DNA of 64,000 nucleotides from an uncultured virus (IMG/VR IMGVR_UViG_3300025150_000005). Taxonomy: Duplodnaviria; Heunggongvirae; Uroviricota; Caudoviricetes. Of the stretch, positions 47,888-63,726 are shown one piece after another. Position 1 is the first letter of the stretch, and every line of letters begins with the position of its first letter. The stretch lies in IMG/VR virus record IMGVR_UViG_3300025150_000005, one strand, 5' to 3'. The translations under genes were made by a program, and so were the position numbers. The notes below the pieces were generated by a model. That model saw only the letters and a program-made list of their open reading frames with translations. It did no database searches and was not told the DNA's origin.

Positions 47888-47912
47888 TCTACGTTTGTAG
47901 GTGGGCTATCGT
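47884..47912 (+). promoter_or_regulatory. sigma70-like promoter overlapping the CTACGTTTGTAG palindrome
   Basis: TTGATC-N17-TATCGT. Confidence 0.45.
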
Positions 47913-47957
47913 CTGGTGACCAGTAGGGTTCCAGGCGAGAGGCACCTTGACCGAACA

Positions 47958-48315: not shown

Positions 48316-48501
48316 ATGCGTGCGCCCCCAAGGCTACCGCGCTTTTTCCCACTAGAAGTTCAGTCGTTTGCGAGGCGGGGCCGCGTTGCGTGGTCCGGTC
48401 GTGCCTTTGTACCGCGTCAGCGTAGACGCGTTCGGGCTGAGGCTTGGGCGCGTGTACGGTCGCACGGTGCGACCACATACCCGAGTTGATAGGAGTTCAA
48501 G

Positions 48502-48840: not shown

Positions 48841-48939
48841 CAGCGTACCTCACGAGCACAGAACCACCGAGCCCTCCGCGGGGTTCGGTGGTTCGATGGT
48901 CGTACGGTGCGACTACATCTGACAGAGGAGGCACAGCGG

Positions 48940-49491: not shown

Positions 49492-49712
49492 TGGCCGCCA
49501 GCATTGCGGAGATCGTGGCCTATCGCAGCCCAGTCGAGCACTGGCACGTTGCCCTGCGCGACCACCAGGGCCGCGCAAGTGCCATTCCCGGCCGCTTCGA
49601 CTCGGCTGAGGGCGCCTTCGTGGCGCGTGCCGCGGCACAGCAGAACGCCAACGCGCTGGGCCTGAAGCGGGCCTACTGCGTGGTGTCCTGCACTGGCACC
49701 CACACCCTGTGA
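49491..49712 (+). CDS. hypothetical protein
   Basis: TGATG coupling; stop codon supplied by the repeat. Confidence 0.55.
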   Translation: MAASIAEIVAYRSPVEHWHVALRDHQGRASAIPGRFDSAEGAFVARAAAQQNANALGLKRAYCVVSCTGTHTL

Positions 49713-49790
49713 GCACAGCAGGGCCGACGCGCGGAGCGTCGGCCCTGCGATGGTCGCATGGTGCGATCCAATGAGAGACAGCGGAGGCAG

Positions 49791-50147
49791 ATGAGGATGG
49801 TCCAGTACACCACCCCAGCCGTGGCGCGCGCGATCCGCGCGTACTTCGCGCGATTCAATGGTGATCCGGTGCTCGTGAATGCGATGATCGACGCGGGCCC
49901 GAAGGAGGTCACCGCCGGTGGGACGCTCTTCTTCCCTCTGCCGCAGGCGCTTCGGCGCCCGTTCTCCGACGCCGATCCGGCGACGGGGCTGGGCCCGTGC
50001 GCGTGCCGCTACTGCTCGCCGGTGGCGCACGTGTCGCAGCCCAACGGATGCTGGGATACATGCGCAGCGTCGTCGGATGGCGAGTCCGTCTGGCAGCCCC
50101 ACCACCCGGCCTTGAACGGGGCTCTCCCGAAGCGAGCGAAGGACTGA
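49791..50147 (+). CDS. hypothetical Cys-containing protein
   Basis: GGAGG SD just after the repeat; CACRYC. Confidence 0.6.
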   Translation: MRMVQYTTPAVARAIRAYFARFNGDPVLVNAMIDAGPKEVTAGGTLFFPLPQALRRPFSDADPATGLGPCACRYCSPVAHVSQPNGCWDTCAASSDGESVWQPHHPALNGALPKRAKD

Positions 50148-50241
50148 TCCCTACCCTGTGAGCACAGCAGGGCCGACGCTCCGCGTGTCGGCCCTGCGAT
50201 GGTCGCATGGTGCGGCTGATGGCAGACACGACGGAGGAAGC

Positions 50242-50778
50242 ATGAACGCGGCGACGAAGCCGGAGAAGACGCCCCTGGACATCATCACGGACCGCATGTA
50301 CAGCCACGTGCACGTGGCGCCCGAGCGTTGGCACGGGCGCCTGCACTTCAACGAGTGGGGCGCCTCGCGCCTCGTGGCCACCTACGGGTGGATCGCGGGC
50401 GTCGCGACGACGAACCCCGACTTCGCGGAGCGCCTCGCGGATGACCTGTTCGCACGCCTGGACTTCCTGGCCAACTACGCTGGGACGTGTGAGCGGGACG
50501 GCGTGACGTTGCCGCGTTGCCGCGTCGTCCTGGGCGACGACGGCACCCTCGGCGGGTTCACGGTGGCGTGGCACCGTCTCGTGGCTCCCGAGGAGGCGGT
50601 TGAGACGCGCGCTGACCTGACCGTCGAGCGCTGCGTGCACGACGGCGGGCACACCCGACTCGTGCAGGGGAAGTACAGGTTCTCGGTGAACGGCGCGATG
50701 CTCTACCGCGGCCCCGGTGCGGGGGAGACGTTCAGCGTCTCGACCTCGCGGGATTGTCTCTGGGACATCAACTCCTGA
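50242..50778 (+). CDS. hypothetical phage-type protein
   Basis: GGAGG SD after the repeat; C-terminal NGAMLYRGP...TFSVS...W.INS. Confidence 0.65.
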   Translation: MNAATKPEKTPLDIITDRMYSHVHVAPERWHGRLHFNEWGASRLVATYGWIAGVATTNPDFAERLADDLFARLDFLANYAGTCERDGVTLPRCRVVLGDDGTLGGFTVAWHRLVAPEEAVETRADLTVERCVHDGGHTRLVQGKYRFSVNGAMLYRGPGAGETFSVSTSRDCLWDINS

Positions 50779-50785
50779 GAAGCTC

Positions 50786-50867
50786 GGGGGCGTCCGCGCA
50801 GCAGCGCGGGCGCCCCTCAAGCTCCCCGAGTCGTCTACTCGGGGTGCTTGAGGGGCGGTGGTCGCCC
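50786..50867 (+). promoter_or_regulatory. double overlapping-hairpin element (variant 1)
   Basis: 13-bp stem overlapping a 20-bp stem, followed by GGTGGTCGC. Confidence 0.7.
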
Positions 50868-50893
50868 TGACACTCAACGGACAGGAGACAAGC

Positions 50894-52291
50894 ATGGCAT
50901 TGGTCAAGTCCGCGGGTATCCGCGGCATCGACCCGGTGCCCGTCGAGGTCACCGCGACGCTCCGTAAGGGGCTGCCGCGGTTCGACATCGTCGGGCTTCG
51001 GGGGGATCGGGCGGTCAGCGAGACGCGCGTGCGCGTCAAGTCGGCCCTGGAGGCTGCGGGCTGGTGGCCCAATGGCAACCTGCAGGTGCAGGTCGAACCA
51101 CAGTGTGACCCCGACCCGGCCTTCGACCTGCCGATCGCGCTGGCGGTCGCGCAGGCCGCGGGCTTCCTGCCCGACGACGGCGGCTTCGCCTTCGGTGAGC
51201 TGGCCCTCGACGGGCGGGTGCGCGGCGCTCGGGGCGCTATCGTGCGCGCCCAGGGTGTCGAGCAGTTCGAGGTCGTGCCCGACGTGGGCTACGTCTCCCA
51301 GGACAACGCGTTCGAGGTCGCGCGTGTGCGTAGTGGCGTCACGCTGCTGGACCATCTCGCAGAGGCGGCGCCGGCTGAGGTGCGGTGGCGTACCGAGCAC
51401 GTCCACTCCCGTACCCCCGCACCCCAGCTCGACCTCGGGGAGTGCAACCTCCTGCCCGAAACGCTCCGCGCATTGGAGGTTGCCCTGACCCTCCAGCGTC
51501 CCTTCCTGCTCGTTGGGCCGCCCGGCGCGGGGAAGACGATGATCGCGCGCCGCATCCCGGGTGTGCTTTGCTCGCTGAGCGAGGCCGAGGGCCGCGAGGT
51601 GCTCGCCATCGCCAGCGTGGCTGGGCTCTTGCTCTTGCGGGATGATGCTCCGATGGTCGCGGCGCGGCCCTTCCGAGCGCCGCACCACAGCTGCTCCGAG
51701 GTCGCGCTCGTGGGCGGTGGGCCGATGCGCCGCCCCGGTGAGCTGTCGCTGGCGCACCGCGGCGTTCTGTTCCTTGATGAGCTGCCGGAGTTCCGGCGGC
51801 TGAGCACCCAGGCGGTCGGGTCCGTTCTGGATCAGGGGGCGGTCACGCTGGGCTTCGGCATCGGGGAGACGGCGACTCTTCCGGCGGCTCCGGCGTTCGT
51901 GGTCGCCAGTACGAACCCGTGCCCGTGCGGCTACTACGGGCACTTCGCGCAGTGCTGCAAGTGTCACCCCACGGCGGTTCAGGCGTACACCGATCGGCTG
52001 CGCTGGGCAGCACGTGCCATCCACGCACGGATGGCCGTCCCGACCCCGACCCTCCGGGGACCGGGGGTCAACGAACGGCGGGCGTCGGTGTCGATGTCGA
52101 GCGAGGAGATGCGCGGGCGGGTTGCCCGTGCGCAGAACCTCCTCGACGATGTCGACGACGTTCGCGCGCCGGGACGGAGCGAGCTGACGCGACAGGTCGC
52201 GCGGTGCTGTGCAGCTGTCGACGGATCGCGGGAGGTGCAGGCGGAGCACTGGCGCGAGGCCGAGGGCTACACGGCGCTCCTGGTGGGGTGA
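50894..52291 (+). CDS. ComM/YifB-family Mg-chelatase-like AAA+ ATPase
   Basis: N-terminal GLPRFDIVGL...ETRVRVKSAL; GPPGAGKTM, RPFRAPHH, GELSLAHRGVLFLDELPEF, NPCPCG. Confidence 0.9.
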   Translation: MALVKSAGIRGIDPVPVEVTATLRKGLPRFDIVGLRGDRAVSETRVRVKSALEAAGWWPNGNLQVQVEPQCDPDPAFDLPIALAVAQAAGFLPDDGGFAFGELALDGRVRGARGAIVRAQGVEQFEVVPDVGYVSQDNAFEVARVRSGVTLLDHLAEAAPAEVRWRTEHVHSRTPAPQLDLGECNLLPETLRALEVALTLQRPFLLVGPPGAGKTMIARRIPGVLCSLSEAEGREVLAIASVAGLLLLRDDAPMVAARPFRAPHHSCSEVALVGGGPMRRPGELSLAHRGVLFLDELPEFRRLSTQAVGSVLDQGAVTLGFGIGETATLPAAPAFVVASTNPCPCGYYGHFAQCCKCHPTAVQAYTDRLRWAARAIHARMAVPTPTLRGPGVNERRASVSMSSEEMRGRVARAQNLLDDVDDVRAPGRSELTRQVARCCAAVDGSREVQAEHWREAEGYTALLVG

Positions 52292-52299
52292 GGTGCTGA

Positions 52300-52372
52300 G
52301 GAGCGGGGCGCGCGGGCGCCCCGCTCCCTAGAGCCTCCGAGGTGGACTCGGGGGTTCCAGGGAGCGATGGAG
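52300..52372 (+). promoter_or_regulatory. double overlapping-hairpin element (variant 2)
   Basis: 12-bp stem overlapping a 19-bp stem, followed by GATGG. Confidence 0.7.
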
Positions 52373-52400
52373 CTTCAACAGATTAGGGGAAATACGGAAC

Positions 52401-52652
52401 GTGGAATGCCATCAGTGCGGTGCGTGCTGCACGCACATTTCGATCTCGTCGGCTCTCCCGGGGCTGCCCAATGGCAAGCCCGCGGGGGTGAGGTGCCCAC
52501 ACCTCGACGCGCGGAACCTCTGTGGGCTCTTCGGGAAGCCTGAGAGGCCACGCGTCTGCTCGTCGTTCCAGGCGGATCGTGAGATCTGCGGGACGAACGG
52601 GGCTGAGGCGGTCGAGCTGATTCAGTTGTGGGAGCGCTTGACGGCGCCCTGA
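52401..52652 (+). CDS. YkgJ-family CxxCxxCC cysteine-cluster protein
   Basis: CHQCGACC..ISISS..PG.P.GKPAGVRC..L....C.LFG.PERP.VC. Confidence 0.85.
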   Translation: MECHQCGACCTHISISSALPGLPNGKPAGVRCPHLDARNLCGLFGKPERPRVCSSFQADREICGTNGAEAVELIQLWERLTAP

Positions 52653-52742
52653 TCGCAACCGCCTGAGCACAGGCGCGCCGACCCCGGTCGGCGCGCTGAT
52701 GGTCGTGCGGTACGACCTGACAGACACAAAGGAAGAACGCCA

Positions 52743-53372
52743 ATGGGTAGCAGCCTCATCACGCAACAGGCCGGCGCGCCGGCCGACTGGCAGACGCACG
52801 ACTACGAGCCCGAGATCGACGCCCTCACCCTTGAGGAATTCCGAGAGGCCCTCGACTACGGGATTCTGAACGAGGAGGCCCTGCGCGGCGAGATCGCGGA
52901 CGACAAGGACATCAACGATGCTGGTGACGTCTCCGAGGACGATCTGCTGGTCGTGCTGAAGGAGAAGGTGCGGCAGGCGCTGGCCTTCGTGCGGGAGCGC
53001 GCCGGCGGGCGCAGCCTCAATCAGTGGGTGCTCGCGGACGGTGGGGCCGGGTTGGAGACCGGGGGCGAGTCCTGGGGCGACGACCCGACCGAGGAGTACG
53101 GGCCGCTTCGGCTGTGTGTGGAAGTCGGGATCTTCGATTCGCTGCGGGCGGCGCGCGTCGTCCGGTGCTCGAAGGTGGCCGACGCGCTGATCGCAGAGGT
53201 CGGCAACAAGGATGTTGGCTACCTGCTCGACGACCGCGTGCATGACGCCAAGGGGAGCGAAGCGGCGGACATCAACAACGGCGGCGTCGCCGCCCAGATC
53301 AGATACCTCATGGACGAGTGCGGGATGAAGCCCGCCGAGATCCGTGAGGCACTCGCCGCCGACGACGACTGA
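52743..53372 (+). CDS. acidic hypothetical protein
   Basis: Fills the cassette exactly; AAGGA SD. Confidence 0.65.
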   Translation: MGSSLITQQAGAPADWQTHDYEPEIDALTLEEFREALDYGILNEEALRGEIADDKDINDAGDVSEDDLLVVLKEKVRQALAFVRERAGGRSLNQWVLADGGAGLETGGESWGDDPTEEYGPLRLCVEVGIFDSLRAARVVRCSKVADALIAEVGNKDVGYLLDDRVHDAKGSEAADINNGGVAAQIRYLMDECGMKPAEIREALAADDD

Positions 53373-53465
53373 TCGCAACCGCCTGAGCACAGAGCCCACG
53401 ACCCGCGTAGCGCGGTCGTGGGCTCGATGGTCGTGCGGTACGACCCAGTGATGACAGGAGTGTTA

Positions 53466-54032
53466 ATGACACGCCAAGAAGTCCACGAAGCGTTGCAGCG
53501 GCTGATCGAAGCCGCCAACGCTGCCGACGGGCCGGGGAGTGATCTCCCGCCCGAGTGGGCCGGGCAGAACCACCTGTACGGGGACGTCCAGGCGGCCCTG
53601 GAGCGAATCGCGCCGGGGGCCTGCGACGTCTGGTCGCGGGATGGGGAGTGGCCGAAGTGGGGTGAGTTCGTCCCGCCCCTCCGGGTGGAGGAGCATCCGG
53701 CGCTGGACGAGATTCGCCATCGCGCACGGGGCAACGCGTTCATCCTCGCGTTCCGGCTGGCCGAGCGGGCGTGGCCGAGTGTCACACTCGCCCTGGGTGT
53801 GCGATTCGGGCGTGACGCGCCCATCGCCACCTTCCTCGGGCGGATGCTGGGCAAAGGGGTCGGCCCGTGGTGGGTCGTGAGCACGCGCCCTGGCGGCGTC
53901 CCCAGCGATGAGGAACGCAGCGCGGCCATCCGGCTGCTCGAAGCGTCGGCGCTCGTTGGCGCCGGCGTCGAGCGTGTCGTGATCATGGGAAATGGGGGCA
54001 ACTACACCATCCTCCCCAGCACTACCGCGTGA
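53466..54032 (+). CDS. protein with a degenerate RadC/JAB-like C-terminus
   Basis: PGGVPSDEE..A.RLLEA..LVG...VVIMG...Y follows RadC spacing but lacks the His/Asp metal ligands. Confidence 0.5.
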   Translation: MTRQEVHEALQRLIEAANAADGPGSDLPPEWAGQNHLYGDVQAALERIAPGACDVWSRDGEWPKWGEFVPPLRVEEHPALDEIRHRARGNAFILAFRLAERAWPSVTLALGVRFGRDAPIATFLGRMLGKGVGPWWVVSTRPGGVPSDEERSAAIRLLEASALVGAGVERVVIMGNGGNYTILPSTTA

Positions 54033-54109
54033 GCGCAGAACGGCCGACGCCTCGTCAGCGTCGGCCGTTCGACGGTCGCACGGTGCGGCTAACGACGGAC
54101 AACGGAGGA

Positions 54110-55234
54110 ATGATGCGAAGCGAGTTCAAGGCTCTCCAGCGCGAGCTGAAGATGCGTGTCCTCGGGCGCGAGGACGAAGTGGAGGGGTTGCTCGTCGCGG
54201 CCCTCGCGGGCCAGCACCTGCTGTTGTTGGGTCCGCCCGGCACCGGCAAGAGCATGCTGGCCAACCTGTTCGCGCAGGCGGCCAACACGAAGCACTTCGG
54301 CCTGTTGCTGACGCAGTTCACCACCCCCGAGGAGGTGTTCGGGCCGGTCAAGTTGTCGGCTCTGAAGCAGGACCGCTACGAGCGCGTCCTGGACAACCAT
54401 CTTGCGAACGCAGAGTCCGCGTTCCTCGATGAGTGTTACAAGGCCAACTCCGCGATTCTCAATGCACTTCTGACTATTCTCAACGAACGCATCTTCGACA
54501 ACGGCGGGACGCGCGTCAAGTGCCCGCTGAAGTTCGTCGTCGGCGCGTCGAACGAGCTGCCCGAAGACAAGTCGCTCGGCGCCCTCGACGATCGCTTCGC
54601 CGTCCGCATGTGGATCGAGCCGCTGCAGAGCGACGACGACCGCGCGTGTATCCTGGGCGGACAGCTCAACCACGACCCCATGCCGACGCTGACGAACGGT
54701 GCGCTCGACGCGGCGCGCGCCGAGGTCCAGCGGGTCGACATCGCGCCCATCCTCCCGGAGGCCCTGGCGCTCATCCGAGAGATTCAGACCGACCTCTCGG
54801 TCTACGTCTCCGACCGCAAGCTGGCCCTGCTCGGCAGGCTCCTCCAGGCGGCCGCGTGGCTCGACGGTCGCACGACGGTCGGCAAGCAGCACCTCGCCAT
54901 CTTCCGCCACGCGCTCTGGTCGCACCCGGACCAGCGGGCTGCGGTCGCGAACAAGGTGCTCGCGGTCGCTGACCCCGAAGCTGCGGAAGCGGAGAAGATG
55001 CTCCGCACCATCGTGGGCGCGGCTCAGGCCGCCGACGCGACGCTCGGTCGGGCCGGGGCCAACCCGGCGAGCGCGGTGAACGAGCTGGCGGGGCTCAACC
55101 GGCAGACCCAGGAGGAGCTGCGCAAGCTGCGGGACCTCGCGCAGCGGTCGCCCTCGGCGGCGCGGACGCTGACGCGTGCAGAGGACGCCGCCAAGCGGGT
55201 GCACGCGGCGATCTCCCGCGCGGCGGGGATCTGA
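54110..55234 (+). CDS. MoxR/RavA-like AAA+ ATPase
   Basis: GPPGTGKS, FTTPEEVFGP, FLDECYKANSAILNALL, GASNELP, DRF, SDRK. Confidence 0.9.
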   Translation: MMRSEFKALQRELKMRVLGREDEVEGLLVAALAGQHLLLLGPPGTGKSMLANLFAQAANTKHFGLLLTQFTTPEEVFGPVKLSALKQDRYERVLDNHLANAESAFLDECYKANSAILNALLTILNERIFDNGGTRVKCPLKFVVGASNELPEDKSLGALDDRFAVRMWIEPLQSDDDRACILGGQLNHDPMPTLTNGALDAARAEVQRVDIAPILPEALALIREIQTDLSVYVSDRKLALLGRLLQAAAWLDGRTTVGKQHLAIFRHALWSHPDQRAAVANKVLAVADPEAAEAEKMLRTIVGAAQAADATLGRAGANPASAVNELAGLNRQTQEELRKLRDLAQRSPSAARTLTRAEDAAKRVHAAISRAAGI

Positions 55235-55333
55235 GCGATACCCTGTGAGCACAGCAGGGCCGACGCTTCGCGCGTCGGCCCTGCGATGGTCGCATGGTGC
55301 GATCCACACGACGACAGACGGAGAACGACAGCG

Positions 55334-55735
55334 ATGGCACCCCCATTCTACCGCACCGAAGTGCGGGCAGCCCACGACGCGTTGATCGCACAGTGGCTTG
55401 CCCAACCCGGCAACGAAGACGCATTCCGACGGGCGCTCGACGGCGCCCAGGGTGAGCGGATCGGGCTCCTCAAGGAGCAGCACTGCGCGCACGTGTGGCG
55501 GGTCAACGACTTGGCCCACGACGTGCGGCTCGACCTTTCGGCGGACGACCCACGAGGGACCTTCGCACGGGTGTGGGTCACGAAGGGGTTCGAGCGCGTA
55601 CGGCTGACACGGGAGACGGCAGAATGGGTGCAGGCCCAGAACGACGGCGTGCTGTTCACCATCGCACGCGACGCGATGATCGCAGCGGCGAGCAAGCTCG
55701 GGCGAGCGCTTGATCGCAAGCTCACTGTCTACTGA
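55334..55735 (+). CDS. hypothetical protein
   Basis: Fills the cassette; GGAG SD. Confidence 0.6.
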   Translation: MAPPFYRTEVRAAHDALIAQWLAQPGNEDAFRRALDGAQGERIGLLKEQHCAHVWRVNDLAHDVRLDLSADDPRGTFARVWVTKGFERVRLTRETAEWVQAQNDGVLFTIARDAMIAAASKLGRALDRKLTVY

Positions 55736-55848
55736 TCACGTACCGCTAATCACGTACCACCCGAGCGCAGGGCACAGGGGCGCGCAGCGCGTCCCTGTGC
55801 CTGACGGTCGCATGGTGCGGCTAACACGGACCAGAGGAGCCCCCACAA

Positions 55849-56778
55849 ATGGGCGAAGAGCAGCAGGATTTCCTCCAGAAGACGCATCGGCAGGTCATCA
55901 CGGCCCCCGACAACGCCTTTGGCGTCGTCGTGGCGATGACGTCGCGCGGACTGAAGATCAGCACCGATCGCTTCGAGGCCGCCGTTGCGGCCGTCGATCC
56001 CGACCTGCGCGCCCTGTGGCGCGACCCCATCGACGACGTGGAGGCGGCCCGCCGGGTCGTCCTCCACAACGCCGGGGTGAACGGTAAGACCCACAAGTGG
56101 GTGAAGCTGCCCGACGCCGTCACCGGCAACCTGCGGTCTTCGACGCGCTGGGGGCTCCTCGCCACCACCCCGGAGGGCGACGAGGCCAAGGGCGAGCACG
56201 TCGGTCGCCTGTCGCTCGACACCAGCGGCCCGGCCGCGGTGTTCGACGCGTCGGACCTCCCGACCGACGCCATGAAGGCGGAGGTCACGCGCGCCTTCGC
56301 CATGTACCGTACCAACTTCCTGACGCCTGACGTCACGGAAGGGTTCGCCAAGGCGTGCGCCAAGGCGAACGCGGTGCAGTGGGGTGGGCACGGGCACCTG
56401 TACTTCGTGCCGCCCGAGTCGCTCCCGCTGGTACAGAAGGCCGTCGACATCGTGCGCGACGCCTGCGGCCGGAGCGGTGTGGCGTGGTGGTTCCCGTGCC
56501 TCCGCGACGACGAGAGCCACGTGGAGGTCGCGCGTGAGGCCATCCAGGACGACCTGGAGGCGACCATCACGCAGGTCGAGCAGTGGGTGCGTGCCCGCGA
56601 CGACGCCGAGCGCGGCCCGAGCGCGCGCGGCCTGACGGCGCGGCTGGATGAGGTCGTGGCGGCCCGGGACAAGCTCGACCTGTACCAGGGGCTGCTCACG
56701 TTCAAGGCCGACGCGCTCCAGCAACGGATCGCGGATCTGAACGTGCTCCTCCCGATCCTGATTCGGTGCGCGGGTTGA
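55849..56778 (+). CDS. hypothetical protein (DUF3150/DUF6744-like)
   Basis: G.LYFVP motif followed by a coiled coil; lies near the AAA and VWA genes. Confidence 0.55.
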   Translation: MGEEQQDFLQKTHRQVITAPDNAFGVVVAMTSRGLKISTDRFEAAVAAVDPDLRALWRDPIDDVEAARRVVLHNAGVNGKTHKWVKLPDAVTGNLRSSTRWGLLATTPEGDEAKGEHVGRLSLDTSGPAAVFDASDLPTDAMKAEVTRAFAMYRTNFLTPDVTEGFAKACAKANAVQWGGHGHLYFVPPESLPLVQKAVDIVRDACGRSGVAWWFPCLRDDESHVEVAREAIQDDLEATITQVEQWVRARDDAERGPSARGLTARLDEVVAARDKLDLYQGLLTFKADALQQRIADLNVLLPILIRCAG

Positions 56779-56883
56779 TTTCTACCCTGTGAGCACAGCG
56801 GGGCCGACGTCGCGAAGCGCGAAGCGTCGGCCCCGCGATGGTCGCATGGTGCGATCCGATGGGTGTGGTGGAGGCAGCGAGAC

Positions 56884-57453
56884 ATGGAAGAAGGTAGCTG
56901 GACCCCGTGGGGTCGGGCAGACAGTGTGAGGACCCTCGCGGAGGGGGTGTGGGCGGTGGGGACCCCGGGACACGGAGGGGTCAAGCTGGATCGGCGCCGC
57001 AACGCCGAGATCCCTGCGCCCATGCGCCGCAAGGGGGGCTGGTACGAGGAGGACTGCGAGGCGCACATCGTCTTCGTGTTCCTGCCGGTGGCGCGGGATG
57101 AGAGCCAACGCGAGGAGGCCCGGCGGGGCTGTCGCAACTACTTCCCGGATGAGTGGATGGCTGCGACGGGTGAGGTGCTGACGCCGGACCAGTCTCACGT
57201 CTTGGAGGAGCGCGCATTTCGAGTGAAGCACGCGGAGGACTACGTTTCGGTCGCCGCAGTCGGAAGCTGGCACGCGGCGGTCCCGGAGGGGATGGTGGGG
57301 TGCACCGCGGTCCCGGGGAAGATGTCGCACCTGGGATACGCGCGTGAGCACGCGCGGTGCTTCCTCGTGCCTGCTGACGAGTACAGTGGGCGTGGGCTCA
57401 AGTTCGTGATCGATCTCCAGCGACACCAGGAAGTGCCCGCGCGCACCTTCTGA
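56884..57453 (+). CDS. DUF7007-like mobile-element protein
   Basis: TPWG, V.TPGHGG, WYEEDCE, RNYFPD motifs. Confidence 0.7.
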   Translation: MEEGSWTPWGRADSVRTLAEGVWAVGTPGHGGVKLDRRRNAEIPAPMRRKGGWYEEDCEAHIVFVFLPVARDESQREEARRGCRNYFPDEWMAATGEVLTPDQSHVLEERAFRVKHAEDYVSVAAVGSWHAAVPEGMVGCTAVPGKMSHLGYAREHARCFLVPADEYSGRGLKFVIDLQRHQEVPARTF

Positions 57454-57544
57454 TCACGTACCACCCGAGCGCAGAGGGGGTGAGCCGTAGGGCTCGCCCC
57501 CTCGACGGTCGCATGGTGCGATCCGACGGATAGGAGACAGGACA

Positions 57545-58195
57545 GTGTACAACGCAACTTTCGTCCGACTCAAGGACCGGCTGGGGTGGACTGGGGACGA
57601 CGCACCCCTCCAACTGGCACTGACGCATCGGTCGCGCAGCGTCGACGCCAACAACGAGCGCCTGGAATTTCTAGGCGACTCCGTGCTGGACCTCGTCATC
57701 GGTGGGGCGCTGCTGATGCGGCACCCCACCCGTGATGAGGGCTGGCTTTCGCAGCGCCGGGCGCAGATCGTCTGCACCCCGGCCCTCGCGCGCCTCGCGC
57801 GAGACTGGCAGCTCGGGCACCTGTTGGAGATCGACAGCGGTGCCGAGCGCGATGGCGCCCGCGACAACGACCGAATCCTGGCGTCCACCGTCGAGGCGGT
57901 GATTGGGGCGTTCTACCAGCGCTTCGGCTTTGCTGAGACGGTAGGCGCGCTGTGTCGCGTGTTCGGCACGAATCTGAATGACGGGGGGGACATCGTGGTG
58001 GAGGAGAACCCCAAGACGGTCCTCCAGAACAGGCTCGCGCGTGCTGGGAGGGCGCCGCGGTATGTCGTGGGCGTCATCGACGGCGAGACGGTCGCCTACG
58101 TGTATATACAGGAGGCGCTGATCGGGCGTGGCGTGGGCCCGAATAAAAAGGCCGCTGAGCGGGCGGCCGCGGAGCACGCGCTTCGTTCCCTGTGA
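57545..58195 (+). CDS. rnc: ribonuclease III
   Basis: ALTHRS, NERLEFLGDSVL signature, VEAVIGA and C-terminal dsRBD (NPKTVLQ...G.G.NKKAAE.AAA). One acidic site reads ASTVE instead of ADxxE. Confidence 0.9.
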   Translation: MYNATFVRLKDRLGWTGDDAPLQLALTHRSRSVDANNERLEFLGDSVLDLVIGGALLMRHPTRDEGWLSQRRAQIVCTPALARLARDWQLGHLLEIDSGAERDGARDNDRILASTVEAVIGAFYQRFGFAETVGALCRVFGTNLNDGGDIVVEENPKTVLQNRLARAGRAPRYVVGVIDGETVAYVYIQEALIGRGVGPNKKAAERAAAEHALRSL

Positions 58196-58267
58196 GCACA
58201 GCAGGGCCGACGCTCCGCGCGTCGACCCTGCGATGGTTGCATGGCGCGGCAGAGAGAGGGAGAGACG

Positions 58268-58864: not shown

Positions 58865-58981
58865 TAAACCGACCTACGTTTGTAGTAGCGTACCACCCGA
58901 GCGCAGGGCACAGGGGCGCGCAGCGCGTCCCTGTGTCTGACGGTCGCATGGTGTGGCTAACAGAGCGGAAACGAGGTGCCA

Positions 58982-60289
58982 ATGGCACGCGAAGCCCAGG
59001 CCCCCGGTGCCTTCGATCTCACCCCGATTCAGGGGTGGTTCGTCGACCGGGCCGAACAGAACACCCCCCTCCTCCGCGCGGCCCGCGAGGGTCCGTGGGG
59101 GGAAGATGACCCGAGCTGGCGACAGTTCGGCCGTGAGCTGGCCGCGCGGCTCTACACGCGCGACAAGCTCGCGCCCCTCGACAACCCTGACCCCCGCCTG
59201 GGCGCACTTCACGCCCAGCTTTCCGAGCTGAGTGAGTGGCAGGCGCTGCAAGGTGCCCTGCAGCAGCGCGATGACCCGACCGAGGTCGGGAACGCAGCGG
59301 CGGACCTGCTGAAGGGCATCACTGCCCTGGCCGAGCAGGACAACCTGCGCCGCGTCAACCTCAGTGGATTCGAGGGCGAGCGCATCGGTGCCGCGATGGT
59401 CGATGCGTGCCGGAATGCTGCGCAGCGCTCCCTCGACGAAGGCGAGCGCATGGCGGGGATGGGCTGGGGCAACGACGCCACGCAGCCGGGCCGCAACGCG
59501 GACCAGCGCCGCGCGCTGCTCAAGCGCATGGACCGGAGCCCGCGACTGAAGGCGATCCTCGCCCTGGCGGGGCGCATGCGCTTCGCGGCCCGCGCTGCGG
59601 CGTCCAGGCGCGTCCAGTCGGGCGTCGGGATGACCTTTGGCATTGAGCAGGGGGCCGACGTCTCGCGGCTCCTGCCCATCGAACAGGGCTACCTGACGTC
59701 GGACGATCCCGACCTGGAGATCCTGGGCCTTGCGCATCTCGCGCAGCGCCAAGCGCTCCAGTATCGCATGGTGGTGCGGCCCCCGGTGCAGGGCGGGCCG
59801 ATCGTCGTGCTGCTCGACGTCTCGGGTTCGATGCAGGGCGAGTCAGAGGTTTGGGCGAAGGCGGTCTTCATCGGACTGTTGGAGCTGGCGCAGGAGAAGA
59901 AGCGCCCCGTGCACCTCGTCGCGTTCAACGGCGGCGTCGTAGGCCAGTGGCGCTTCGCACCCGGGGAGCGTGACTTCGACAAGCTCATCGACACGATGGG
60001 CGTGGCCTGCAAGGGCGGTACGAACTTCCACGAGCCGATGGCGCGCGGGATCAAGTGCATCGAAGGCGAGCAGACGATGCGTGACGCGGACGTGGTGATG
60101 ATCACGGACGGGGCCGCAGATGTCAATGGCATCGTCGAGATGCTCGACGGGTGCTCGGTTGGGGTGCGGTGCTTCGGCATCGTGATCGGCGCGAGCACGG
60201 AACGGCTCGACGTCTTCTGCTCGAAGACGTGGGGCCTGGAGGATCTGACGGTGGAGGCGGCGAGCAGGTTGTTCGACGCGGTCGTGTAG
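58982..60289 (+). CDS. VWA-domain protein (ViaA/CoxE-like partner of the MoxR ATPase)
   Basis: MIDAS DVSGSM, GGTNF, ITDG; RLLP.E. Confidence 0.9.
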   Translation: MAREAQAPGAFDLTPIQGWFVDRAEQNTPLLRAAREGPWGEDDPSWRQFGRELAARLYTRDKLAPLDNPDPRLGALHAQLSELSEWQALQGALQQRDDPTEVGNAAADLLKGITALAEQDNLRRVNLSGFEGERIGAAMVDACRNAAQRSLDEGERMAGMGWGNDATQPGRNADQRRALLKRMDRSPRLKAILALAGRMRFAARAAASRRVQSGVGMTFGIEQGADVSRLLPIEQGYLTSDDPDLEILGLAHLAQRQALQYRMVVRPPVQGGPIVVLLDVSGSMQGESEVWAKAVFIGLLELAQEKKRPVHLVAFNGGVVGQWRFAPGERDFDKLIDTMGVACKGGTNFHEPMARGIKCIEGEQTMRDADVVMITDGAADVNGIVEMLDGCSVGVRCFGIVIGASTERLDVFCSKTWGLEDLTVEAASRLFDAVV

Positions 60290-60367
60290 CCACAGGGGAG
60301 GGGGGCGCCTACGGCGGCCCCCTCCCTGATGGCTGCATGGTGCGGCCTACCAGCACGGAGATTTGAG

Positions 60368-60787
60368 ATGGAACACGGTTTCAAGAAGGCCCTGCGGGAC
60401 GCGTTGGGGGCGCAGCGGCTCGTAGAGGCTCATGATGCTCTTCTGAGCCACATCGACTCTTTCGAGCCTGTCTGTCCGGCCCTCCCCTACCTCTACGTGG
60501 CGATCGCGCGGGGCACCATCATCGATCTGGACGTGACGGGCGTGGACAGCGACGAGGCCCAGCTCGTGGCGCTGCTGCGGAGCTGCTATCCAGACGCCGA
60601 CCACTGGATCTGGGAGCACGTCCGCGTGGAAGCGGGTGTGGAGGGGTGCGTGGCGACTGCACCCGATGTCTGCATCGAGTGCGGGCGTGCGGACCTGACG
60701 GTGATGTGTGTCTCCGTAGACGGGGACGATGGCCGCCGTGCGTGGGTGTGCGACGACTGTGGCCACGCGCACCTGATCAACGACTGA
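60368..60787 (+). CDS. hypothetical Zn-ribbon protein
   Basis: CIEC...CDDC; GGAG SD. Confidence 0.6.
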   Translation: MEHGFKKALRDALGAQRLVEAHDALLSHIDSFEPVCPALPYLYVAIARGTIIDLDVTGVDSDEAQLVALLRSCYPDADHWIWEHVRVEAGVEGCVATAPDVCIECGRADLTVMCVSVDGDDGRRAWVCDDCGHAHLIND

Positions 60788-60879
60788 TCACGTACCACCC
60801 GAGCGCAGGACACAGGGGCGCGCAGCGCGTCCCTGTGTCTGACGGTCGGGTGGTGCAGCTGACGACGGAGGAGTTGAGG

Positions 60880-61335
60880 ATGGCATCGCCCAAGGAGTTT
60901 GCCGCGACGTTGCGCGTCGTGCGCGAGATCACAGACATGGAGCGGCGCGACGACACGGGGTCTGGGGTGTACACCCAGCTCCTTCAGCAGCTGCGCGGGG
61001 ACCTGCTCGTCCACGGTGCAGGGTACAAGCTCCCCCGTGGCGGACACGCGTCGACCTTTGGAGACGCGCTCGTGGCGTGGCAGGCGGAGGCCCGCAAGAT
61101 CGATGTGGACGACCCCGACGTCTGGTGGCGTCGAGTCCACAAGGCGCAGGCCCTCGACGAGCGCATCGCGCGGGGTGACGCTGCGACCCCGGACTTCGAC
61201 GCCGCCGTCGAGTCGCTCGCCAGTGACATTCGGACCGAGACGGGGCTCTACGCGCTGCCCGACGAGAACCTCACCGCGGACCGCGAACGCGCTCTGCAGC
61301 AGTGGCGGTACTACTCGCGCACGCCTCGCGACTGA
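60880..61335 (+). CDS. hypothetical protein
   Basis: GGAGG SD; fills the cassette. Confidence 0.6.
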   Translation: MASPKEFAATLRVVREITDMERRDDTGSGVYTQLLQQLRGDLLVHGAGYKLPRGGHASTFGDALVAWQAEARKIDVDDPDVWWRRVHKAQALDERIARGDAATPDFDAAVESLASDIRTETGLYALPDENLTADRERALQQWRYYSRTPRD

Positions 61336-61424
61336 GCAGCCACAGGGGGTGGGGACGCGTGCGGCGCGCGCCCCCACCCCTGATGGTCGCACGGTGCGGC
61401 TGGAACGGATCAAGGAGGCGACGC

Positions 61425-61796
61425 ATGAATGCGTGCAAGGTGCAGTGGATCGGGGTGGACGGCAGCCCCTGTGAGGCGTGGGTGGCCAAGCCCCGCAGTG
61501 AGGCCGGCTTCGTGTTGCCCATGATGGGCGCCTACCCGACCTACAAGGCCGCGATGCACGCGGCGTGGCAGGTCGAGGAGGGACACACTCCCGAGATCAA
61601 GGTGTTCGATCAGGACACCATCTTCGAGTGGGAGGGCACCTTCATGGAGTTCGCGCTCGCCAACGCGAGCACGCCTGACGTCGTCGAGCGGGTGCGTCGC
61701 GCCCAGCTGGGGTCGGTCGAGGTGTTCGGGGGCGGTGGAGCGAGCGTCTGCAAGGTGCTCAAGCTCGGTGGTCCCGTGCCGGGCGGTGCATCGTGA
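61425..61796 (+). CDS. hypothetical protein
   Basis: AAGGAGG SD. Confidence 0.6.
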   Translation: MNACKVQWIGVDGSPCEAWVAKPRSEAGFVLPMMGAYPTYKAAMHAAWQVEEGHTPEIKVFDQDTIFEWEGTFMEFALANASTPDVVERVRRAQLGSVEVFGGGGASVCKVLKLGGPVPGGAS

Positions 61797-62077
61797 GTGA
61801 CAAGGCGCTCTTCCCGCTGGGCCAGACCGTGATGACGGCTGGCTTCGAGGATCTGTTCGGTGAGTATGCACGAGAGGTCGCGACGATCGCGCTGACACGG
61901 CACGTCCACGGTGATTGGGGCGACCTCGACAACCACGACCGCGCGGTCAACGCACGGGCGCTCCGGGATGGCGGACGCCTGATGAGCGTCTACAAGTTCG
62001 ACGACGGCCTCACGCACTGGGTGATCACGGAGGCGGATCGATCCGTGACGACGGTGCTGCTACCGCATGACTACTGA
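61793..62077 (+). CDS. conserved plasmid/phage small protein
   Basis: F.LG..V.T.G...RH..GDWGDL...D...N..AL..G.RL.S.Y...WVITEADRSVTTVLLP.DY, a pattern I recognise from mobile elements. Confidence 0.8.
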   Translation: MSDKALFPLGQTVMTAGFEDLFGEYAREVATIALTRHVHGDWGDLDNHDRAVNARALRDGGRLMSVYKFDDGLTHWVITEADRSVTTVLLPHDY

Positions 62078-62174
62078 ACCCCGTGAGCACAAGGGAGGGG
62101 TGCGCCCTGCGCGCACCCCTCCCTGATGGTCACGTGGTGTGACCGATCGACCTTCACAGAAGGAAGGCTTCACG

Positions 62175-62552
62175 ATGATGCAGATGAATCGAATCGAGCG
62201 GGCCGTGCGAGAGCACGTCCAGGGGGGCTGGGACGATCGGGCGAAAGCCCTGATTCGTCGGGCAACTCACGACCTCTACGCCGGGCCATCGGTCTTGGGC
62301 TCCGAGGGCGGGGAGGGGATCGAGTGGCCTGGCTTCGCCGAGGCCATGGTCGAGCTTGGCGCCCTTGACCTTCCGGGGACGCTCTGGTGGGACACCACCG
62401 CAGAGATGCTCCTGGAGTGTGGGCCTCAGGGCTACACCGACGAGGATACGGGCGAGTACGTGGAGCCGTTCTACGAGGATTACGTGGAGCTGGATCTCCG
62501 CGAGATCCGTCGCATGGTCTTCGGGCGCGAACTCGCGCCCTACGTGCGCTGA
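62175..62552 (+). CDS. hypothetical protein
   Basis: AAGGA SD after the repeat. Confidence 0.6.
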   Translation: MMQMNRIERAVREHVQGGWDDRAKALIRRATHDLYAGPSVLGSEGGEGIEWPGFAEAMVELGALDLPGTLWWDTTAEMLLECGPQGYTDEDTGEYVEPFYEDYVELDLREIRRMVFGRELAPYVR

Positions 62553-62977
62553 TGGACACGCAGACGGACACCCCGCGCGAGGTCCCGAGCTACCCCGGCC
62601 TCCCCGTCGTCAAGGCCCTGGTGAAGAAGATGGGGCGGCTCCGATTGCGCGACGCTGTCGCCCGTGTCTGCGTGTCGGACTTCGGGATCGTGCGCTGTGA
62701 CAACAAGCCGCAACTGACCCTGAGCTTCGTCAACTCGCGCGGTAAGCGTGTGGACTGGTCCGTGAGCCTGGACCGGACGCCTGCGACGGAGGTCTACGAC
62801 CAGCTGCGTCAACTGGAGGGTCAGCTGATCTTCCTGCTCGCGAGTGGGCGGCTGTACACCGTGCTGACCTACAGCGCGATGAACCGCGGTGAGTCCGTGC
62901 GGCGTCGTGTCACGGGGACATCGCGGACGCGGTTCCGGGGGCAGTTCGTGATCGACGTCGAAGCCTTCCCCGAGTAG
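62552..62977 (+). CDS. hypothetical protein
   Basis: TGATG coupling; stop codon supplied by the repeat. Confidence 0.55.
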   Translation: MDTQTDTPREVPSYPGLPVVKALVKKMGRLRLRDAVARVCVSDFGIVRCDNKPQLTLSFVNSRGKRVDWSVSLDRTPATEVYDQLRQLEGQLIFLLASGRLYTVLTYSAMNRGESVRRRVTGTSRTRFRGQFVIDVEAFPE

Positions 62978-63056
62978 CCACAGGGGAGGGGGTCGCCTTC
63001 GGCGACCCCCTCCCTGATGGTCACGCGGTGTGATCAACAGGGACCTGGAGGAAGCG

Positions 63057-63257
63057 ATGTCCGAACGGACGCATACGTGCGTGGACGGCAAGCAGTCTGT
63101 CGCCCCGACCTACTGGCTCTACGACGGGCGAGGCATCCCGCCCTGTCGGGCGTGCCCGCAGTGTGAGGCCGAGAAGTACGGGCGCTATCGCCCCGACATT
63201 GTCGAGCGGGCCTACAGCGCGGCGGATGTCGACGAACCGATCGAGGAGGACGAGTGA
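63057..63257 (+). CDS. small hypothetical protein
   Basis: GGAGG SD; YDGRGIP.C..C..C...YRPD. Confidence 0.6.
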   Translation: MSERTHTCVDGKQSVAPTYWLYDGRGIPPCRACPQCEAEKYGRYRPDIVERAYSAADVDEPIEEDE

Positions 63258-63641
63258 TGGCGATCAAGCGTGGGTTACGGCCCCCGGCCATGTACGCCGT
63301 CGTCGCGACAACACTGCGGGGAGTCAGGGCAGCTGATCCCGAGACTGCTGAAGACGAGGCTGTGCGGTATCACGTCAAGCCGGGCGCATCACGTCAAGCC
63401 GGGCGCGCGTGCCATCATCGCGAAGTGTGTCGACCGCGCCGAGGCTGATCGGTGGCTCGCCGAGTTCAAGGCGGAGATTGAGGCCGACATCGCTGACGCT
63501 GAAGTTGATATGGCCAGCAAGGGTGCCCGGTTCGACTGGGACCGGGGCGGGATCGACATGGGCGATGGCGTTTTCATCCCGACGCTCCGCGTGGCGATCG
63601 TGCCCATCACGGATCTCGAAGACGACGCTGATCCCGAGTAG
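63257..63641 (+). pseudogene. gene frameshifted by a 19-bp tandem duplication
   Basis: ATCACGTCAAGCCGGGCGC x2 at 63369-63406; removing one copy joins ORF 63254.. to ORF ..63641. Confidence 0.75.
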
Positions 63642-63726
63642 CCACAGCGACAGGGGTGCGCATCGCGCCCCTGTCGTGATGGTCACGCGGTGTGACCGGA
63701 TCGACAACCCCGGACGGGAGAACGCA

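What the first reader, a model, noticed from the sequence alone, without database searches (positions are those of the whole stretch)
49704..63697. Elements are mosaic and supply upstream stop codons: footprints of recombination
Seen: four leader types (TACCCTGTGAGCACA, TGATCGCAACCGCCTGAGCACA, TGATCACGTACCACCCGAGCGCA, GYAGCCACAG) are interleaved. One leader carries different stems (52650 vs 53370; 55749 vs 57451), and similar GGGAGGGG stems carry different leaders (62078 vs 62974). About ten genes end on a TGA/TAG inside the leader (49712, 52652, 53372, 54032, 57453, 58195, 60289, 60787, 62977, 63641). Two unrelated genes end with identical CCCGAGTAGCCACAG. The leader start is duplicated at about 55733-55760. 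Inference: genes are captured or exchanged by crossover in the element. No integrase is visible in the window.
Basis: partly seen in the sequence, partly recalled or inferred. Interest (0 to 1): 0.75.

Follow-up and report, generated by a model that had tools for sequence, protein, structure and literature searches.

The report
Two-hairpin spacers between phage operon genes
Almost every gap between genes in this 16-kb gene row of an uncultured phage-like element holds the same folded two-hairpin signal, which most likely acts on the messenger RNA and, being a dispersed repeat, also serves as a place where DNA is swapped and genes are slipped in.

Summary
Between 48.8 and 63.7 kb, 18 co-oriented copies of a ~75-nt element fill the gaps between 1-2-gene units; an H2-only copy lies at 48.46 kb and two divergent spacers flank the ComM gene. 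Anatomy: leader with stop codons at two fixed registers, box A (GAGCRCAG/TAGCCACAG), a variable 11-17-bp hairpin, box B (YGAYGG), a conserved YGG-loop hairpin, then 17-31 nt to the start codon.

New here: box A pairs with box B (R:Y covaries 18/18) across an invariant CA/GA internal loop. 97.9% of 378 pair cells are paired (0/500 shuffles reach this). There are 39 G-U cells against 4 A-C cells, so the sense strand folds, which points to RNA.

No sigma-70 promoter, U-tract terminator, Rfam family, integrase or HUH gene was found. The mosaic is real: modules are only weakly congruent, and 86-93% identical copies sit between unrelated genes.

In 75 of 80 distant viral loci MoxR and VWA are neighbours. 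Here five genes and six elements separate them.

Best reading: RNA punctuation of a long operon, with homologous exchange at the repeats as a by-product, as with PeSLs. Site-specific capture is unsupported. No close relative could be fetched.

The parts
48853..48918 (+). Element e48853 (box A to hairpin 2); leader TGA at 48838-48840
   Evidence: 72.4 bits
49710..49772 (+). Element e49710, stem family a; its TGA in box A ends the upstream gene; its apical loop is inverted relative to e50159 and e58193
   Evidence: (83.6 bits)
50159..50221 (+). Element e50159, stem family a
52650..52721 (+). Element e52650 (leader TGATCGCAACCGCC, box A at 52664)
53370..53449 (+). Element e53370; same leader and hairpin 2 as e52650, different stem
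54030..54094 (+). Element e54030 (GAGCGCAG paired with GACGG)
   Evidence: 85.6 bits
55246..55308 (+). Element e55246, family a, just after MoxR
55735..55826 (+). Element e55762, family b, with the 14-nt-period leader duplication (ATCACGTACC at 55735-55744 and 55749-55758)
56790..56860 (+). Element e56790, family a, with a 7-nt tandem duplication in the apex (56811-56826)
57466..57527 (+). Element e57466; clearest mosaic: family-b leader, unique stem, family-a hairpin 2
58193..58255 (+). Element e58193, family a; its TGA ends the RNase III gene
58898..58962 (+). Element e58898, family b, preceded by CTACGTTTGTAG at 58874-58885
60287..60351 (+). Element e60287 (TAGCCACAG; its TAG ends the VWA gene)
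60800..60864 (+). Element e60800, family b; hairpin 2 degenerate
61337..61405 (+). Element e61337
62084..62148 (+). Element e62084 (box A CACAA paired with T: an A-U replaces the usual G-Y pair)
62975..63039 (+). Element e62975 (TAG ends the upstream gene)
63639..63701 (+). Element e63639 (TAG ends the upstream gene); last copy before the window ends
48458..48474 (+). Hairpin-2-only copy (GGTCGCA CGG TGCGACC) in the leader of the first small ORF of the array
   Evidence: (36.8 bits for 48405-48495)
50779..50893 (+). Divergent spacer before the ComM gene: two GC hairpins with overlapping alternative pairing and a remnant of box B/hairpin 2 (GGTGGTCGCCCTGACA)
   Evidence: 12.6 bits, E 0.076; pairing read by eye
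52292..52400 (+). Divergent spacer after the ComM gene: two hairpins, then GCGATGG, with no hairpin 2
   Evidence: read by eye
54113..55234 (+). MoxR-type AAA ATPase gene (bpMoxR)
   Evidence: (PF20030, E 4e-53)
57545..58195 (+). RNase III homologue inside the array. It keeps the ERLEFLGD signature and the dsRBD, but has Ser where E. coli has Asp114
58982..60289 (+). VWA-domain gene, the usual neighbour of MoxR
47888..48457 (.). About 570-bp non-coding stretch with GGATCC-containing repeats that precedes the array; candidate control or promoter region

Best explanation
The elements are cis-acting structured spacers in the messenger RNA of one long, co-oriented operon. The operon runs from about 48.5 kb to beyond 64 kb in a high-GC, phage-like element from groundwater.

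Each spacer folds on the sense strand into two parts. The first is a long irregular hairpin: box A pairs with box B, then comes an invariant 2x2 CA/GA internal loop, then an 11-17-bp stem of free sequence. The second is an abutting 5-7-bp hairpin with an invariant YGG loop, which lies 17-31 nt before the next start codon.

Inferred function. The long hairpin is an endonuclease site or 3' end barrier. RNase III, host or phage-encoded, is the leading candidate, cutting at or near the internal loop as at phage T7 intercistronic sites. The small hairpin caps and standardises the 5' leader of the next cistron. Each 1-2-gene unit is thus expressed as an insulated module.

Inferred by-product. Eighteen dispersed direct repeats of 60-80 nt are substrates for homologous recombination and gene conversion. 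This scrambles their modules, leaves stop codons and C-terminal codons of genes inside the leaders, and lets units be inserted or lost, as shown experimentally for PeSLs in T4-type phages.

Shown: the fold, its strand, its distribution and the mosaic. Inferred: cleavage, end protection and gene exchange.
For: Fold.
- RNAalifold recovers 21 pairs, 16 of them with compensatory changes.
- 97.9% of 378 cells are paired against 72.3% in shuffles (0 of 500 shuffles reach the observed value). Slid registers give 32-51%.
- Box A R pairs with box B Y in 18 of 18 copies (13 A-U, 5 G-C). C19:G65 is invariant.
- Folded alone, all 18 copies form the box A/B closure and stem 1, and 17 of 18 form hairpin 2.

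Strand.
- 39 G-U cells against 4 A-C or C-A cells.
- The + strand is more stable in 15 of 18 copies (mean -36.7 vs -32.9 kcal/mol, Wilcoxon p=0.003).
- All 18 copies and the extra one are on the + strand. Mirror hits score 45 bits or less against 63-86 bits.

Placement.
- Copies occur only between co-oriented genes. None reaches E<0.01 in 1-48 kb.
- Spacers are 72-117 nt and are filled by the element.
- Hairpin 2 alone precedes the first ORF, where there is no upstream gene.
- Four overlapping stop/start gene pairs carry no element.

Not a promoter or terminator. The scan found no + strand sigma-70-like site. It found 6 terminator-like sites against 4.8 expected, none of them at an element.

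RNase III.
- A full-length homologue with ERLEFLGD and the dsRBD glutamine lies inside the array.
- Internal loops that limit RNase III to one cut are documented (PMC3074117, passages).

Recombination by-product.
- Families a and b are 86-93% identical over 71-80 nt between unrelated genes.
- Modules are incongruent.
- Small duplications and a loop inversion are present.
- The MoxR-VWA pair is split.
- The PeSL precedent is PMC2839356 (passages).
Against: - There are no RNA data. No RNA run holds the stretch, so cleavage, transcript ends and even co-transcription are untested.
- The stems next to the loop are GC-rich. G-C pairs at some proximal-box positions inhibit Aquifex and E. coli RNase III (PMC3074117).
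- The array's own RNase III homologue has Ser at the position of catalytic Asp114, which all 15 aligned cellular homologues keep. It may be weak or altered.
- A CTACGTTTGTAG motif, also found at other gene starts, sits inside the array at 58874. The row may therefore hold more than one transcription unit.
- G-T wobble is also tolerated in single-stranded DNA, so a + strand DNA fold is not strictly excluded.
- Gene exchange at the elements is not directly seen. Contigs of four other runs are letter-identical with the same adjacency.
Confidence: 0.5

Rival explanations
1. Same RNA fold, but it acts without cleavage. The spacers would keep Rho from loading on long untranslated gaps, would make RNA polymerase terminator-resistant (as the HK022 put two-hairpin RNAs do; recalled), or would set translation of the next cistron through a hairpin-binding protein.
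For: - Fold, strand and placement are as in the best explanation.
- The YGG loop and its closing bases are invariant, as expected for a protein-recognised hairpin.
- The distance from hairpin 2 to the start codon is tight, 17-31 nt.
- The phage RNase III homologue lacks one catalytic Asp.
Against: - Processive antitermination needs one or two sites per operon, not 18.
- Hairpin 2 does not sequester the Shine-Dalgarno sequence in the single-sequence folds, which covered box A to hairpin 2 only.
- No candidate RNA-binding regulator was identified among the array proteins.
Confidence: 0.2
2. PeSL-like transcription cassettes. Each element would be a terminator or attenuator hairpin plus a promoter, so that every unit is its own transcription unit, with recombination between cassettes as in T4-type phages.
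For: - The layout matches PeSLs: an upstream stop codon, a stem-loop, then the ribosome site of a small gene of unknown function, in a plastic region (PMC2839356).
- GAYGGT carries A at position 2 and T at position 6 of a -10-like hexamer (seen by eye).
- Mosaic modules are present.
Against: - No sigma-70-like promoter lies on the + strand and no U-tract follows the stems.
- No conserved -35 sits at a fixed distance, because the box A to box B distance varies with stem length.
- Box A/B covariation and the covariation in hairpin 2 indicate pairing, not duplex DNA recognition.
- The host's promoter rules are unknown, so this is not excluded.
Confidence: 0.1
3. Dedicated DNA recombination sites. 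The elements would be folded single-strand substrates of a tyrosine recombinase (integron attC-like) or an HUH nuclease (REP/RAYT- or IS200/IS605-like) encoded outside the window, and would capture gene cassettes.
For: - The row consists of co-oriented 1-2-gene units, each followed by an imperfect palindrome of conserved shape but free sequence, with stop codons inside the site, as in many integron cassettes (recalled).
- Modules are mosaic.
- Five genes are inserted between MoxR and VWA.
- The source contig is at least 130,784 bp, so about half of it is unseen.
Against: - No integrase, resolvase, transposase or Y1/HUH domain was found in the 79 window ORFs scanned.
- There are no RYYYAAC/GTTRRRY core sites, and box A/B pair over only 2 bp plus one closing pair.
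- The sense strand folds better and carries 39 G-U cells, whereas attC recombines through the bottom strand (recalled).
- The elements are co-oriented singles confined to one operon, unlike the genome-wide, often inverted REP pairs (recalled).
- A hairpin-2-only copy sits in a leader.
Confidence: 0.08
4. Duplex-DNA operators. Hairpin 2 would be a palindromic binding site for a phage repressor, repeated in intergenic gaps like L5 stoperators or the phiC31 conserved inverted repeats (both recalled), or like the ESAS repeats of cluster K mycobacteriophages.
For: - The sites have one orientation and lie in intergenic gaps of the non-structural region, close to gene starts, as for SAS/ESAS (PMC3203893).
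- The GCAYGGTGC core occurs 10 times, only in elements.
Against: - Hairpin 2 shows compensatory changes (3 of 6 pairs) and many G-U pairs. ESAS arms, by contrast, do not covary (PMC3203893).
- An operator does not explain stem 1 or the box A/B pairing.
Confidence: 0.05

Closest known systems
PeSL (promoter-early stem-loop) cassettes of T4-type phages (Arbiol 2010, PMC2839356, passages read; Comeau 2014, PMC4122927, abstract read)
   Same: - Repeated composite motifs fill the gaps between small, mostly unknown genes in a plastic region.
- Each starts at the upstream stop codon and contains a GC stem-loop with G-T pairs.
- The motifs act as homologous linkers for insertion, deletion and swapping of gene units without an integrase.
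   Different: - PeSLs are defined by a strong sigma-70-like promoter with an AT-rich upstream region and by a stem-loop that terminates transcription. Here there is no promoter match and no U-tract.
- This element has two hairpins, a covarying closure and an invariant internal loop.
- Exchange was shown experimentally for PeSLs (mini-circles, phi1 vs RB49). Here it is only inferred.
Intercistronic RNase III processing sites of phage T7 early and late mRNAs (recalled; general RNase III points from PMC3074117, passages)
   Same: - Irregular hairpins with an internal loop lie between the cistrons of a long phage transcript.
- Shape is conserved more than sequence.
- A cut would leave a 3' hairpin on the upstream message.
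   Different: - The lower helix is only 2 bp and is followed by a second conserved hairpin.
- There are 18 sites in 16 kb.
- An RNase III homologue is encoded in the array itself, with Asp114 replaced by Ser.
- No cleavage data exist.
SAS/ESAS repeats of cluster K mycobacteriophages (PMC3203893, passages read)
   Same: - One-orientation repeats are confined to the non-structural half of the genome and lie next to start codons.
- Upstream stop codons sometimes lie inside the repeat.
- Function is unknown.
   Different: - SAS overlaps the ribosome-binding site itself.
- The ESAS inverted repeats do not covary and were judged to be protein-binding DNA. Here pairing is strongly supported, and the conserved part ends 17-31 nt before the start codon.
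Integron attC sites and cassette arrays (recalled)
   Same: - Co-oriented short gene units are each followed by an imperfect palindrome of conserved architecture and free sequence.
- Stop codons often lie inside the site.
   Different: - There are no R''/R' core sequences, no IntI in the window, and folding is on the sense strand.
- The element carries a leader hairpin for the next gene.

Membership tests
PeSL cassettes | Strong sigma-70-like promoter (-35, -10, AT-rich upstream region) within the motif | tested here: not met
   One search found 3 promoter-like sites in 47.5-64 kb, all on the - strand and none in an element. The host's promoter consensus is unknown, so the test is limited.
PeSL cassettes | Stem-loop that terminates or attenuates transcription | tested here: inconclusive
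   Stable stems are present in all 18 copies, but no U-tract follows them. Termination itself cannot be assayed here.
PeSL cassettes | Insertions, deletions and replacements between close relatives have breakpoints in the motifs | not testable with these tools
   No close relative could be fetched. Contigs of four other runs are identical to the window.
RNase III processing sites (T7 type) | Double-helical hairpin of roughly two turns, often with an internal loop that limits cleavage to one strand | tested here: met
   2 bp, a 2x2 loop and 11-17 bp, with strong covariation. The lower helix is short.
RNase III processing sites (T7 type) | Cleavage by RNase III at a defined bond | not testable with these tools
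Integron attC | R'' (RYYYAAC) and R' (GTTRRRY) core sites that pair as the R box (recalled definition) | tested here: not met
   Box A is GAGCRCAG or TAGCCACAG and box B is YGAYGG. They pair over C:G and R:Y only.
Integron attC | Adjacent intI tyrosine recombinase and attI | tested here: not met
   No Phage_integrase or other recombinase hit in the 79 window ORFs scanned. The rest of the contig (at least 130 kb) is unseen.
REP/RAYT | Many genome-wide copies, often as inverted pairs, with a Y1/HUH RAYT gene (recalled definition) | tested here: not met
   There are 18 copies plus 1, all on the + strand, all within 48.4-63.7 kb and none in 1-48 kb. No Y1_Tnp hit was found. The whole genome is not held.
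Rfam families | A match at the gathering score | tested here: not met
   0 matches over the whole window. At E<=1 there were only two sub-threshold hits, both in the divergent spacer at 50.8 kb.
SAS/ESAS | 13-bp GGGATAGGAGCCC-type site 3-7 bp before the start codon, and non-covarying 17-bp inverted repeats | tested here: not met
   The conserved part ends 17-31 nt before the start codon, and the arms covary.

The most novel reading that the evidence does not exclude
This would be an integrase-free gene-cassette system in a large phage. The two-hairpin spacer is both the expression signal and the portable homology that lets any bracketed gene be exchanged among related phages. As an expression signal it would be processed by a phage-encoded RNase III variant with an altered active site, making each unit an insulated message. 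The five units wedged between the normally adjacent MoxR and VWA genes would be the footprint of such exchange. The free-sequence stem may be kept diverse to limit deletion between neighbouring copies.
Probability: 0.2. Interest if true: 0.75.

Novelty: new variant of a known kind. Interest (0 to 1): 0.55.

Why it matters
Long phage operons need a way to express many unrelated small genes evenly, and phage genomes need safe places to take up new genes. This array suggests one compact RNA signal could do both. The case is unusually clean: 18 copies give strong covariation, the folded strand is clear, stop codons sit at fixed registers, and a normally adjacent gene pair has been pulled apart. 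The RNase III homologue inside the array makes the processing idea directly testable. The family has no Rfam match and no recognisable copies in the collections searched. It would therefore add a new structured RNA family and a second, promoter-less example of the linker-mediated shuffling known from PeSLs.

Tried and rejected
Searches for the element elsewhere:
- The hairpin-2 17-mer gave 31 viral contigs, each with a single match.
None of the loci held at that point had the hairpin architecture.
- A box A to hairpin 2 pattern gave 9 metagenome loci. Only L158 is real, and its three copies, flanks and spacings are letter-for-letter those of the window.

Searches for relatives by protein:
- The MoxR protein alone found nothing in viral or genome contigs.
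- A MoxR alignment found 80 viral loci at 29-50% identity. Model R1 found no element in them, only one generic 23-bit hairpin.
- Among those loci only L174 is repeat-rich, and its repeats are a different simple CACGGTG array.
- megablast of 49-64 kb against phage records gave no match.

Sequencing runs:
- No RNA holder is listed.
- Contigs of X2-X5 are identical to the window with the same adjacency. The few joints have short sides and lie in conserved parts of the ComM gene (51.1-51.9 kb). Three further joints with inserted letters (table 5c) fall elsewhere in the window. I did not follow any of them up.

Other:
- No whole genome is held for the window.
- The large - strand ORFs gave no Pfam, PHROG or PDB hit, and one of them (26529-27782) gave no Atlas hit. 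'Phage' therefore rests on the methylase, exonuclease, ParB, endolysin-like, MoxR, VWA and RNase III PHROG hits and on the viral neighbours.
- The RecA-like ORF at 48940-49491 was considered as a Sak4-type recombinase and rejected. Only RecA positions 70-138 match and the P-loop region is missing.
- Folded template-strand promoters (N4 virion polymerase, plasmid Frpo; both recalled) were rejected because the sense strand is the one that folds.
- Earlier notes of this scan held nothing for this place or sequence.

Full report
**What is there**

The window is a 66% G+C contig. Sequence identical to it occurs in several groundwater and aquifer metagenome runs. Its MoxR protein is on record on a contig of 130,784 bp.

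From about 48.5 kb to the window end all genes run on the + strand. A script and a covariance model find 18 full copies of one intergenic element between 48853 and 63701, all on the + strand. One further copy at 48458-48474 has only the second hairpin. It sits in front of the first small ORF of the row, after a ~570-bp non-coding stretch.

With filters off, no hit reaches E<0.01 anywhere in 1-48 kb. The two gaps that flank the ComM-like gene (50779-50893 and 52292-52400) hold different double hairpins with remnants of box B (read by eye). Four gene pairs with overlapping stop and start have no element. The elements therefore separate units of one or two genes.

**Anatomy**

From 5' to 3':
- A leader of about 14 nt that usually begins with TGA.
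- Box A, YGAGCRCAG or TAGCCACAG.
- Stem 1, 11-17 bp, GC-rich, near-perfect, of free sequence, with a 3-7-nt loop.
- Box B, YGAYGG.
- Hairpin 2, consensus GTCGCA-YGG-TGCGRY.
- 17-31 nt holding the Shine-Dalgarno sequence, then the start codon (17 ATG, 1 GTG).

The spacers are 72-117 nt long and the element fills them.

It is confirmed in all particulars; see the observation check. One point adds to it. Upstream stops fall at two preferred registers: 1 nt before the first paired base (6 of 18, using the TGA or TAG of box A) and 15-16 nt before it (8 of 18, using the TGA at the leader start). The other four lie at 5, 10, 30 and 37 nt, and the 30-nt case equals 16 nt plus the 14-nt duplication. 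Where the gene ends in box A, its last codons (CTG, or CCCGAG) are element sequence.

**The fold**

RNAalifold on the 18 copies predicts stem 1 and hairpin 2. The C and R of box A pair with the G and Y of box B, across an invariant 2x2 internal loop (CA opposite GA). The R:Y pair is A-U in 13 copies and G-C in 5, with no exception. The last base of box A pairs with the Y before GAYGG (G-C 9, G-U 8, A-U 1).

Over 21 pairs and 378 cells, 97.9% are standard pairs. Column shuffles give 72.3%, and 0 of 500 reach the observed value. Slid registers give 32-51%. Sixteen of the 21 pairs show changes on both sides. The copies are paralogues in one genome, so the shuffle control overstates independence. 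The slid-register control and the several distinct stem families do not depend on that.

**Which strand, and RNA or DNA**

The consensus pairs hold 39 G-T or T-G cells against 4 A-C or C-A cells. The + strand fold is more stable in 15 of 18 copies (mean -36.7 vs -32.9 kcal/mol, Wilcoxon p=0.003). Reverse-strand model hits are far weaker. The sense strand therefore folds, with wobble pairs used freely, which is the signature of an RNA structure in the message. A + strand single-stranded DNA fold is not strictly excluded.

**What it is not**

- Not an Rfam family: none at gathering score, and only two sub-threshold chance-level hits in a divergent spacer.
- No + strand sigma-70-like promoter and no stem followed by a U-tract lies at any element.
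- The distance between box A and box B varies with stem length, which argues against a bipartite duplex-DNA site.
- No integrase, resolvase, transposase or HUH domain was found in the 79 window ORFs scanned. These were 24 ORFs in the array, 38 large ones and 17 further ones. ORFs outside my selection and the unseen half of the contig remain open.

**The mosaic**

Mantel tests on leader, stem 1 and hairpin 2 show only partial congruence: leader vs stem 1 r=0.32 (p=0.0008), leader vs hairpin 2 r=0.21 (p=0.04), stem 1 vs hairpin 2 r=0.10 (not significant). All three also correlate with rank distance along the array (r=0.22-0.35).

Stem family a (49695, 50144, 55231, 58178) is 86-93% identical over 71 nt. 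Family b (55746, 58882, 60784) is 91-93% identical over 80 nt. In both, similarity stops at the element edges and the flanking genes are unrelated. Stem sequence is otherwise free, so this identity points to recent copying or gene conversion rather than sequence constraint.

Small DNA-level events are also visible:
- A 14-nt-period leader duplication at 55735-55758.
- A 7-nt tandem duplication in the apex of e56790.
- The 5-nt loop of e49710 (GCGGA) is the reverse complement of that of e50159 and e58193 (TCCGC).
- The spacer before the ComM gene appears to have a partly deleted hairpin 2 (read by eye).

**Gene gain**

I aligned the window's MoxR with 25 homologues and fetched 80 viral loci that hold relatives at 29-50% identity. 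tblastn of the 24 array proteins against these loci found a VWA relative in 75 of 80. It was always downstream on the same strand. The extrapolated gap has a median of 231 nt and a range of -72 to 1903 nt, and is approximate because N-terminal lengths differ.

The DUF7007, RNase III and nucleotidyltransferase proteins, and the unnamed ORF at 55334, were found in 0 of 80 loci. The DUF6744-like protein was found in 1 of 80. In the window the gap is 3747 nt and holds those five genes and six elements, larger than in all 75 loci. This is the best sign that units have been inserted within the array. It compares distant relatives only.

**Relatives**

The decisive synteny test could not be run. The only MoxR above 50% identity is an 80% partial protein on a 4.6-kb contig that I could not fetch. 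Contigs of four other runs are letter-identical and bridge many elements with the same neighbours. Examples are X2 52191-54331 and 55822-58015, and X3 62739-63931. They represent the same population, not independent evidence.

**Mechanism**

I read the element as RNA punctuation of a long operon. Hairpin 2 travels with the gene start, since it alone precedes the first ORF. The long hairpin travels with the gene end.

The closest working model is the set of phage T7 intercistronic RNase III sites (recalled). Internal loops that restrict RNase III to one cut are documented (PMC3074117, passages). A cut at the CA/GA loop would leave a 3' hairpin on the upstream message and a 5' hairpin on the downstream one.

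An RNase III homologue lies in the array (57545-58195). It keeps ERLEFLGD, Glu117 and the dsRBD glutamine. It has Ser where E. coli has Asp114, a residue kept in all 15 aligned cellular homologues, and its best homologues are only 41-45% identical. Its activity is therefore uncertain, and a host enzyme may do the work.

Alternatives at the RNA level are shielding from Rho, antitermination, or a hairpin-binding translational regulator.

In T4-type phages, recombination between intergenic promoter/stem-loop repeats deletes, inserts and circularises small genes without a dedicated recombinase (PMC2839356, passages; PMC4122927, abstract).

**Earlier notes of this scan**

A word search returned several unverified AI notes on two-hairpin punctuation between early genes of other uncultured phages. 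They agree with this reading and suggest the layout recurs. I did not test them.

**Literature limits**

I searched the held library five times and found no description of this element or of a phage operon punctuated in this exact way. That covers only this library and these terms. Statements on T7 sites, L5 stoperators, phiC31 repeats, HK022 put, N4 and Frpo promoters, attC and REP/RAYT definitions, and the role of Asp114 are recalled, not read here.

Noticed in passing
window 47888-48457: A non-coding stretch of about 570 bp just before the array carries some ten GGATCC-containing repeats, such as GGTACCTGGGATCC x3 and CGGGTCCCAGGATCCA x3, some in inverted orientation. It is a candidate operator, promoter or origin region for the array.
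   Followed up: partly
window 33613, 35950(-), 39504, 47889, 58874: The partly palindromic 12-mer CTACGTTTGTAG occurs 5 times (up to 2 mismatches) against 1.0 expected, with 0 of 100 shuffles reaching 5. All sites are in intergenic places near gene starts, including one inside the array before the VWA gene. It may be a promoter or regulator site.
   Followed up: partly
window 63369-63406: An exact 19-nt tandem duplication (ATCACGTCAAGCCGGGCGC x2) breaks the frame of the gene that starts at the ATG overlapping the stop at 63257. Contigs of other runs that cover the place show no difference, so it is not an error peculiar to this assembly.
   Followed up: partly
window 57545-58195: The RNase III homologue has Ser at the position of catalytic Asp114 (E. 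coli numbering), which all 15 aligned cellular homologues keep, and a shortened dsRBD. No homologue above 45% identity was found.
   Followed up: yes
window 48940-49491: This ORF matches only RecA positions 70-138 and starts just after where the P-loop would be, directly downstream of element e48853. It is a RecA-derived fragment or domain protein, coupled by an ATGA overlap to a 74-aa ORF (49488-49712).
   Followed up: partly
window 50779-50893 and 52292-52400: The two spacers flanking the ComM-like gene carry a different design: a GC hairpin, then a longer hairpin around CCCCGAG/CTCGGGG. In the first spacer the 3' arm of hairpin 1 overlaps the 5' arm of the long hairpin, giving mutually exclusive folds.
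   Followed up: no
window 47698-47789: An 18-nt tandem repeat (5.1 copies, 95% match) lies inside the ORF ending at 47887 and would encode a repeated hexapeptide.
   Followed up: no
L174:1200-3750: The viral contig whose MoxR match has the lowest E-value of the 80 loci (46% identity) carries about 2.3 kb of degenerate CACGGTG-type short repeats upstream. They share the GCACGGTGCG core with hairpin 2 of this window's element. This may be coincidence or a shared binding motif.
   Followed up: no
window 44169-44265: ARAGORN calls a 97-nt tRNA-Thr(CGT) inside the glycosyltransferase-like ORF 44043-44705. It is probably a false call.
   Followed up: no
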